Shown piece by piece: positions 54,151-54,505 of a stretch of 64,000 nt of DNA. A model generated the notes under the pieces. The model was not told the DNA's origin. It searched no databases and was given only the letters and a program-made list of their open reading frames with translations. A program made the position numbers and the translations under genes. The stretch comes from Escherichia coli (GTDB lineage: Bacteria; Pseudomonadota; Gammaproteobacteria; Enterobacterales; Enterobacteriaceae), in the NCBI RefSeq assembly GCF_050920415.1, contig NZ_CP169309.1, one strand, 5' to 3'. Positions within the stretch are counted from its first letter, which is position 1. Each line of letters opens with the position of its first letter.

Positions 54151-54505
54151 TAGCATCAAAAAAGCCCCGGCAAGTTTTATTGTCGGGGCTATGATAGTAA
54201 CTGCGGTAGTATATTTATCCCGGAAATAACCGGAGCGATTATCAGGGTTTAACAATATTAAATACCCGTAGCGCATCACTAGCGGGACTAAAACAACATT
54301 ATGGACATCTTTACGATACTCTGCGCCTGTGTGTGCGGAACAGAAACCCTTACCCGATATACTTGTTATGCCAGAGGTAGCAATTGCGTTAGCGGCGTGC
54401 TGTTGCTGTAAAGTATAACGCCTATATTTTACAGTTCAGTCCTCTTTTGCTTATTACAAACCTTAAATATATCAAGTATATAAAGATAATAAGAGACTGA
54501 ACAAT

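What the first reader, a model, noticed from the sequence alone, without database searches (positions are those of the whole stretch)
54163..54190. Hairpin in the glcB-glcA intergenic region oriented as a minus-strand terminator
The stem agccccg / cggggct is preceded on the plus strand by an A run (aaaaaa), so on the minus strand it reads as a hairpin followed by TTTTTT, a canonical intrinsic terminator. No annotated minus-strand gene ends here; it may block antisense transcription entering glcB or terminate a small antisense transcript from the 355-bp glcB-glcA spacer.
Basis: seen in the sequence. Interest (0 to 1): 0.3.

Follow-up and report, generated by a model that had tools for sequence, protein, structure and literature searches.

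The report
Terminator hairpin of C0719 antisense RNA
The hairpin is real and is most likely the ordinary transcription terminator of a previously reported small RNA (C0719/ES170) made from the opposite strand of the glcB-glcA spacer, and published maps show that glcB messages on the other strand also end just after it.

Summary
The hairpin at 54163-54190 is real and single-copy.

On the - strand it is followed by T6, a canonical intrinsic terminator. Three results tie it to a known transcript:
- It lies 15 nt beyond the Rfam match to sRNA C0719 (RF00117, 54426..54205, - strand, 285.6 bits).
- The K-12 RNA-seq transcript ES170 (Rau 2015) maps to window 54457..54158 on the - strand, so it ends on the last T of that run.
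- ES170 starts 8 nt after an extended -10 motif (TGaTATATT in the window, TGaTATACT in K-12).

Term-seq (Adams 2021) and TRS (2023) list glcB-strand 3' ends 4-7 nt after the stem. Neither lists a 3' end on the C0719 strand. The + strand hairpin is the more stable one (-20.1 vs -14.7 kcal/mol) but has no U tract, so it probably blocks exonucleases or terminates weakly.

Six natural alleles keep the stem on both strands without significant covariation.

Verdict: an ordinary, already known kind of element. Low interest.

The parts
54163..54190 (.). Palindromic GC-rich stem-loop. On the + strand it has 11 bp with one G.U. On the - strand it has 7 bp, an A.C mismatch, then 3 bp. The loop is 54174-54179.
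   Evidence: Identical in K-12. Single copy.
54158..54163 (-). U6 tract of the - strand terminator. It is U7 in a common E. coli allele and U5 or U4 in two divergent alleles.
   Evidence: The ES170 3' boundary (K-12 v3 3121626) maps to 54158.
54158..54457 (-). About 300-nt intergenic/antisense RNA: ES170, which is C0719 extended at both ends. It is fully complementary to the glcB-glcA intercistronic part of the glc mRNA.
   Evidence: Rau et al. 2015 supplementary file 2. Coordinates converted through the K-12 alignment. Libraries were directional, made by RNA-adapter ligation.
54205..54426 (-). Match to Rfam RF00117 (C0719 sRNA). The model stops 15 nt before the hairpin, so it lacks the terminator.
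   Evidence: 285.6 bits, gathering score 50.
54466..54474 (-). Candidate extended -10 promoter, TGaTATATT (TGaTATACT in K-12). It lies 8 nt upstream of the ES170 5' boundary at G54457.
   Evidence: Read from the sequence. Inference only; no TSS data could be obtained, and the two-hexamer promoter scan reported no site in the spacer.
54190..54197 (+). Published 3' ends of glcB-sense RNA. The Term-seq end at K-12 3121590(-) maps to window 54194 (RNA ends ...CGGGGCUAUGA). The TRS peak at 3121587-3121594(-) maps to 54190-54197.
   Evidence: Adams 2021 supplementary file 1, LB OD 2.0 sheet. TRS 2023 supplementary data 2. Coordinates verified.
51979..54150 (+). glcB (malate synthase G). Its stop codon lies 13 nt upstream of the hairpin.
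54506..56188 (+). glcA (glycolate permease), the last gene of glcDEFGBA. Its expression requires read-through of the hairpin on the + strand.
   Evidence: Operon structure from PMC3265435 and PMC10272880.

Best explanation
The stem-loop is the Rho-independent terminator of a roughly 300-nt RNA transcribed on the window's minus strand, entirely inside the glcB-glcA spacer. This RNA is the known candidate sRNA C0719, whose fuller form is the RNA-seq transcript ES170.

Transcription probably starts at an extended -10 promoter about 50 nt upstream of the glcA start codon and runs toward glcB. It stops when the GC-rich hairpin forms ahead of the U6 tract, 7-8 nt before the glcB stop codon. Antisense transcription therefore does not enter glcB.

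Because the stem is a near-palindrome, the same sequence folds into an even more stable hairpin in the sense glc mRNA, 13 nt after the glcB stop. There it has no U tract, and it marks the main steady-state 3' end of glcB-containing transcripts. The most likely sense-strand mechanism is a block to 3'-to-5' exonucleases acting on cleaved or downstream-terminated mRNA. Weak termination is the alternative. Either way, read-through supplies glcA.

Shown directly:
- the structure and the U tract;
- the Rfam match;
- the published transcript boundaries on both strands.

Inferred:
- the promoter;
- actual termination at the U tract;
- the mechanism of sense 3' end formation.
For: - Canonical terminator anatomy exists only on the - strand: -14.7 kcal/mol stem, U6, T-score 4.5 against 1.6.
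- The hairpin lies 15 nt past the Rfam C0719 match on the same strand.
- ES170, from directional RNA-seq, is on the C0719 strand. Its 3' boundary falls on the last T of the run, and its 5' boundary lies 8 nt after TGaTATACT/TGaTATATT.
- C0719/ES170 is induced 3.5-fold in transition phase and 7.4-fold in stationary phase.
- The hairpin persists in both the MFE and the centroid fold of the 300-nt RNA.
- An equally good motif is expected by chance in the spacer only about 0.007 times.
- All six natural alleles keep a stem of -11 kcal/mol or better and a T run of at least 4 on the - strand.
- Sense-strand 3' ends are published: Term-seq 3121590(-) and TRS 3121587-94(-) with signal 0.95-1.0.
Against: - The curated Term-seq (three conditions) and TRS tables contain no 3' end on the C0719 strand at the T run.
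- ES170 boundaries come from a 100-read coverage cut-off, not from end mapping.
- C0719 is weakly expressed and has been dropped from the current RefSeq K-12 annotation.
- The 300-nt RNA is not more structured than shuffled sequence (z = -0.74).
- In the commonest allele the - strand stem carries an A.C mismatch where the + strand has G.U, so the + strand hairpin is 5 kcal/mol more stable.
- One divergent allele has only U4.
- No transcription start site data could be retrieved.
- Covariation is not significant on either strand.
Confidence: 0.7

Rival explanations
1. Sense-strand element only. The hairpin exists to form or protect the 3' end of glcDEFGB mRNA, as an intercistronic stabiliser or a weak terminator that sets the glcB:glcA ratio. 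On this view the upstream A run, and hence the minus-strand terminator appearance, is incidental, and C0719/ES170 is transcriptional noise or cross-strand signal.
For: - The only end-mapped 3' termini at this site are on the glcB strand, in Term-seq and in at least two TRS data sets with signal 0.95-1.0.
- The + strand hairpin is more stable (-20.1 vs -14.7 kcal/mol), with G.U where the - strand has A.C.
- A second allele (L117 type) again has a wobble that favours the + strand, and only U4 on the - strand.
- An outer ATCA/TGAT helix would bury the mapped sense 3' end.
Against: - An A6-7 run directly abutting the stem has no role in a sense-strand stabiliser, yet 43 of the 47 metagenome contigs that reach this site carry it.
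- The ES170 boundaries match a promoter-like motif and the U tract on the other strand to within a nucleotide or two.
- Other alleles carry changes that pair only on the - strand (pairs 72-81 and 73-80; L110).
- The Rfam family is defined on the - strand.
Confidence: 0.2
2. Symmetric bidirectional intrinsic terminator for two convergent transcription units, glcDEFGB on one strand and C0719 on the other, terminating RNA polymerase efficiently in both directions.
For: The units are convergent, and transcript ends are reported on both strands at one hairpin.
Against: - The + strand tail UAUGAUAGU is not a U tract (T-score 1.6).
- glcA is reported to be expressed as part of glcDEFGBA, which requires read-through.
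- The sense 3' ends lie at +4 to +7 in non-U sequence, which fits trimming better than termination.
Confidence: 0.1
3. A chance palindrome with no role on either strand.
For: About 1.3 equally good hairpin+T5 motifs are expected per 64-kb window. The whole spacer is uniformly conserved within E. coli, so conservation is uninformative. Covariation is not significant.
Against: Only about 0.007 such motifs are expected in this spacer. Transcript ends on both strands coincide with it in independent published data sets.
Confidence: 0.03

Closest known systems
C0719 RNA (Rfam RF00117; EcoCyc G0-8912) and ES170 (Rau et al. 2015, PMC4676190)
   Same: Same locus and strand. The full-length Rfam match lies 15 nt upstream of the hairpin. 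The ES170 coordinates include the hairpin and end on its U tract.
   Different: The Rfam model and the 222-nt annotation stop short of the hairpin, so the terminator is not part of the described family. No function, promoter or mapped 3' end was found for it in the papers I could search.
Canonical Rho-independent terminators of enterobacterial sRNAs (GC-rich stem plus at least 6 U, e.g. Spot 42)
   Same: GC-rich stem and U6 tail at the 3' end of a small RNA. Rfam's weak Spot 42 alignment is carried by this shared terminator shape.
   Different: The Spot 42 score is 19.6 bits against a gathering score of 80, so it is not a member. The stem carries an internal A.C mismatch in the common allele. 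Hfq binding was not tested.
Bidirectional terminators between convergent genes (Ju, Li and Liu 2019, cited in PMC10687069)
   Same: One hairpin between two convergent transcription units, with transcript ends reported on both strands.
   Different: Only one side has a U tract, and the sense strand must be read through to express glcA. I could not consult the SEnd-seq tables.
Intercistronic stem-loops that stabilise upstream operon segments (e.g. REP in malE-malF; from my own knowledge)
   Same: A stable hairpin without a U tract just after an internal cistron. Steady-state 3' ends lie a few nt 3' of the stem, and the upstream gene is more abundant than the downstream one.
   Different: It is single copy, not a REP/BIME repeat. 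Stabilisation of glcB mRNA has not been measured.

Membership tests
Rho-independent (intrinsic) terminator, - strand | GC-rich stem-loop | tested here: met
   Seven pairs (six G-C plus the closing A-U), an A.C mismatch, then 3 bp; -14.7 kcal/mol; z = -3.7.
Rho-independent (intrinsic) terminator, - strand | U-rich tract immediately 3' of the stem | tested here: met
   UUUUUUGAUG, T-score 4.5. Alleles range from U4 to U7.
Rho-independent (intrinsic) terminator, - strand | Lies at the 3' end of a transcription unit on that strand | tested here: met
   Rfam C0719 ends 15 nt upstream. The ES170 3' boundary falls on the last U.
Rho-independent (intrinsic) terminator, - strand | RNA 3' ends map in the U tract at nucleotide resolution | tested here: inconclusive
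   No such end appears in the curated Term-seq or TRS tables. The RNA is weakly expressed. The only support is a coverage boundary.
Rho-independent (intrinsic) terminator, - strand | Factor-independent termination in vitro | not testable with these tools
   Requires in vitro transcription.
Rho-independent (intrinsic) terminator, + strand | U-rich tract immediately 3' of the stem | tested here: not met
   The tail is UAUGAUAGU, T-score 1.6. The stem itself is strong (-20.1 kcal/mol).
Rfam RF00117 C0719 | Score above the gathering threshold over the full model | tested here: met
   285.6 bits against 50, model positions 1-222 at 54426..54205. The hairpin itself lies outside the model.
Rfam RF00021 Spot 42 | Score above the gathering threshold | tested here: not met
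   19.6 bits against 80, E = 0.71.
Bidirectional terminator | U tract 3' of the stem on both strands (an A tract and a U tract flanking it) | tested here: not met
   An A6 run lies upstream, but there is no T run downstream on the + strand.
REP/BIME-type repeated extragenic palindrome | Many copies per genome | tested here: not met
   One copy in the window. Median one place per E. coli genome.
Hfq-dependent sRNA | Hfq binding and trans targets | not tested
   Only the 3' hairpin plus U6 module is visible in the sequence. No RIL-seq or CLIP tables could be consulted.

The most novel reading that the evidence does not exclude
C0719/ES170 may be a functional cis-antisense RNA. By convergent transcription, or by pairing with the 300-nt glcB-glcA intercistronic segment (an RNase III substrate), it would uncouple glcA from glcDEFGB. 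The shared palindrome would then serve twice: as the antisense terminator and as the protective 3' cap of the cleaved glcB message. That would make it a small built-in switch setting the enzyme-to-permease ratio in stationary phase.
Probability: 0.15. Interest if true: 0.45.

Novelty: already known. Interest (0 to 1): 0.15.

Why it matters
Practically, it corrects an annotation. The 222-nt C0719 entry in Rfam and EcoCyc lacks its terminator and probably its true 5' end, and the likely transcript is about 300 nt (window 54457..54158). It also shows that a hairpin which looks like a terminator for one strand can be the experimentally dominant 3' end on the other strand, so orientation alone should not decide function. 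Biologically it matters only if the antisense RNA turns out to influence glcB/glcA expression. Otherwise it is a routine terminator.

Tried and rejected
- **Built-in terminator scan:** it did not report the site, presumably because of its loop-length limit. I replaced it with my own scan.
- **Spot 42 resemblance:** rejected, 19.6 bits against a gathering score of 80.
- **REP or other repeat:** rejected, the core is single copy.
- **The 50-aa ORF on the - strand (54279..54127) that crosses the hairpin:** rejected as coding, because the A6/A7 length polymorphism lies inside it and would shift the frame.
- **Cross-species comparison:**
It returned only E. coli plus GlcB relatives of 75% identity or less, with no usable spacer.
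  - A metagenome scan with a degenerate GlcA N-terminus pattern gave 52 loci. The 47 with at least 300 nt of sequence upstream of glcA that kept the intact spacer were all 94% or more identical to it.
  - This yielded six hairpin alleles but no significant covariation and no strand discrimination.
- **Other 3' end or TSS data sets:**
  - Dar and Sorek 2018 and the Term-seq 3'-UTR paper have no supplements held.
  - The held TERMITe tables (one file cut when stored) have no entry for this site.
  - SMRT-Cappable-seq has nothing at this site.
  - Ju 2019, Thomason 2015, Tjaden 2002 and Hershberg 2003 are not held.
- **Structure of the 300-nt RNA:** no excess over shuffled sequence (z = -0.74).

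Full report
**Observation**

On the + strand the region reads TCAAAAAA-GCCCCGGCAAG-TTTTA-TTGTCGGGGC-TATGATAG. The arms AGCCCCG (54163-54169) and CGGGGCT (54184-54190) are in place, and the A run occupies 54158-54163. glcB ends at 54150 and glcA begins at 54506, which gives the stated 355-bp spacer.

The stem is longer than noted. On the + strand it has 11 pairs with a G54170.U54183 wobble and a 6-nt loop (-20.1 kcal/mol). On the - strand it has 7 bp, an A.C mismatch, then 3 bp (-14.7 kcal/mol), followed by UUUUUUGAUG. Both folds beat dinucleotide shuffles (z = -4.2 and -3.7).

A d'Aubenton-Carafa-type U-tract score is 4.5 on the - strand and 1.6 on the + strand. The orientation argument is therefore sound.

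The built-in scan missed the site, presumably because of its loop limit. My own scan finds 3 hairpin+T5 motifs at least this good in the window, against 1.3 in shuffles. That corresponds to about 0.007 expected within this spacer. The core is single copy and identical in K-12.

**What lies on the minus strand**

Rfam gives a full-length, high-scoring match to C0719 sRNA (RF00117) at 54426..54205 on the - strand (285.6 bits, gathering score 50). The model ends 15 nt before the hairpin. C0719 is a candidate sRNA found by microarray between yghK (glcA) and glcB; that origin is from my own knowledge. EcoCyc lists it as G0-8912, according to the annotation used by Adams et al.. It is not in the current RefSeq K-12 annotation.

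Rau et al. 2015 (PMC4676190) made directional libraries by RNA-adapter ligation and called transcripts from coverage. Their transcript ES170 is 3119349-3119648 on the + strand of NC_000913.2, and it overlaps C0719 at 3119380-3119601.

The offset to NC_000913.3 is +1978, derived from the C0719 coordinates in the two versions and checked against the K-12 locus. ES170 therefore becomes 3121327-3121626, which maps to window 54457..54158 on the - strand. Its 3' boundary is the last T of the T6 run after the hairpin. Its 5' boundary, a G, lies 8 nt downstream of TGaTATACT in K-12 (TGaTATATT at window 54474..54466). I read that as an extended -10 promoter, which is an inference.

C0719 and ES170 rise 3.5-fold in transition phase and 7.4-fold in stationary phase of fed-batch culture. 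The terminator hairpin survives in both the MFE and the centroid fold of the 300-nt RNA. The RNA as a whole is no more structured than shuffled sequence (z = -0.74).

**What lies on the plus strand**

Two published 3' end maps put an RNA end on the glcB sense strand right after the same hairpin.
- Adams et al. 2021 Term-seq (PMC7815308, supplementary file 1) lists 3121590 on the - strand. It is classed as 'primary' for glcB and 'antisense' to C0719, and it appears in the LB OD 2.0 sheet only.
- The RNA at that end reads ...CGGGGCUAUGA, 4 nt past the stem, at window 54194.
- TRS (PMC10687069, supplementary data 2) lists a peak at 3121587-3121594 on the - strand, with its dominant position at 3121587/8. 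The signal is 0.95-1.0, and the annotation is 'Alternative primary in TU, glcB'.

Neither table has a 3' end on the C0719 strand at 31216xx.

The sense tail UAUGAUAGU is not a U tract. glcA is treated in the literature as part of a polycistronic glcDEFGBA unit. From memory, Nunez et al. 2001 found no internal promoter in the spacer. The most economical reading is that the + strand hairpin, perhaps with the small outer ATCA/TGAT helix seen, stops 3'-to-5' exonucleases on cleaved or downstream-terminated glc mRNA. Weak termination is the alternative. I cannot separate these two mechanisms with the tools available.

**Variation**

Within complete E. coli genomes the whole spacer is 95-98% conserved, so conservation of the hairpin says little.

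The species-level genome scan was uninformative. A metagenome scan with a degenerate GlcA N-terminus pattern returned 52 loci; the 47 with at least 300 nt upstream of glcA and an intact spacer were all at least 94% identical to it.

Together these sources give six hairpin alleles:
- A-run lengths of 4, 5, 6 or 7.
- Pair 70-83 as G.U, G-C or A-U.
- Pair 69-84 as G-C, G.U or A.C.
- Pairs 72-81 and 73-80 occasionally A.C on the + strand, which is U.G on the - strand.

Every allele keeps a stem of -11 kcal/mol or better on both strands. Formal counting gives 93.9% paired cells on each strand, and covariation is no better than in shuffles. Comparative data therefore neither prove selection on the structure nor choose a strand.

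**Interpretation**

The best-supported account is that the hairpin is the intrinsic terminator of the known C0719/ES170 RNA. It confines that antisense transcript to the spacer. The same palindrome is also the structure at which glcB-sense RNA ends in vivo.

I put 0.7 on the dual-use account and 0.2 on a sense-only element. A symmetric bidirectional terminator gets 0.1, and chance gets about 0.03.

**Comparison, novelty and score**

This works like an ordinary sRNA terminator. It passes the sequence-level criteria on the - strand and fails the U-tract criterion on the + strand. It is not Spot 42 (19.6 bits against 80), not a REP element, and not a symmetric bidirectional terminator. The element and both sets of transcript ends are already in public resources, so I rate it 'already known'.

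The only increment is that the Rfam and EcoCyc C0719 boundaries should be extended to include this terminator. Interest is 0.15.

The most novel reading still open is that C0719 acts in cis on the glcB-glcA junction to set the enzyme-to-permease ratio. I give it a probability of 0.15 and an interest of 0.45 if true.

Noticed in passing
window 12134-12197 (-) and 28907-28983 (-): Two further Rfam matches above gathering score: ES173 sRNA (99 bits) and naRNA4/CssrE (87.1 bits).
   Followed up: no
window, T runs starting at 18053 (+) and 33777 (+): Two stronger canonical terminator-like hairpins (-22.7 and -18.5 kcal/mol, each followed by T5-6) were found by my own scan. The built-in scan was not run on these positions.
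   Followed up: no
window 54301-54411 (+): A 36-aa Cys-rich ORF (MDIFTILCACVCGTE...) sits inside the glcB-glcA spacer on the operon strand, antisense to C0719. Natural alleles carry both synonymous and non-synonymous changes. I did not assess its coding potential.
   Followed up: no
window 54127-54279 (-): A 50-aa ORF with a hydrophobic C-terminus runs through the hairpin and T run into the glcB 3' end. The A6/A7 polymorphism lies inside it and would frameshift it, so it is unlikely to be coding.
   Followed up: partly
window 54158-54163: The A/T run next to the stem varies in length: 6 (K-12 and this window), 7 (a common allele), and 5 or 4 in two divergent metagenome alleles.
   Followed up: yes
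L086 (NZ_CP073939.1, strain MB53); metagenome locus L132: Structural variants. In MB53 an IS1A-associated deletion removes glcB and the hairpin, with the breakpoint near window 54199. L132 carries unrelated sequence left of about window 54290, while the glcA-proximal half of the spacer is intact.
   Followed up: partly
L083 (NZ_CP109874.1, strain EC488), homologous to window 54148-54153: The glcB stop codon TAA is mutated to TTA, so the CDS runs one codon further to TAG.
   Followed up: no
whole spacer, window 54100-54560: The region is absent from 883 of 5,426 complete E. coli genomes, and only 16 genomes are at least 99% identical to this window's allele; the best match is bovine strain EC42405 at 100%. 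Skippington and Ragan 2012 list C0719 as lost in phylogroup E plus S. dysenteriae and in S. boydii plus S. sonnei.
   Followed up: partly
C0719 locus (literature): A mariner insertion at C0719 reduced group II intron retrohoming and top-strand synthesis to 17% of wild type in extracts (PMC3636086). C0719 overexpression had no biofilm or motility phenotype (PMC4606813).
   Followed up: no
window 54153-54157 with 54191-54195 (+): A short outer helix, ATCA/TGAT, brackets the A run plus the hairpin in the predicted fold. The mapped sense-strand 3' ends at +4 to +7 fall at or just past its 3' arm, so the mRNA 3' end would be base-paired.
   Followed up: partly
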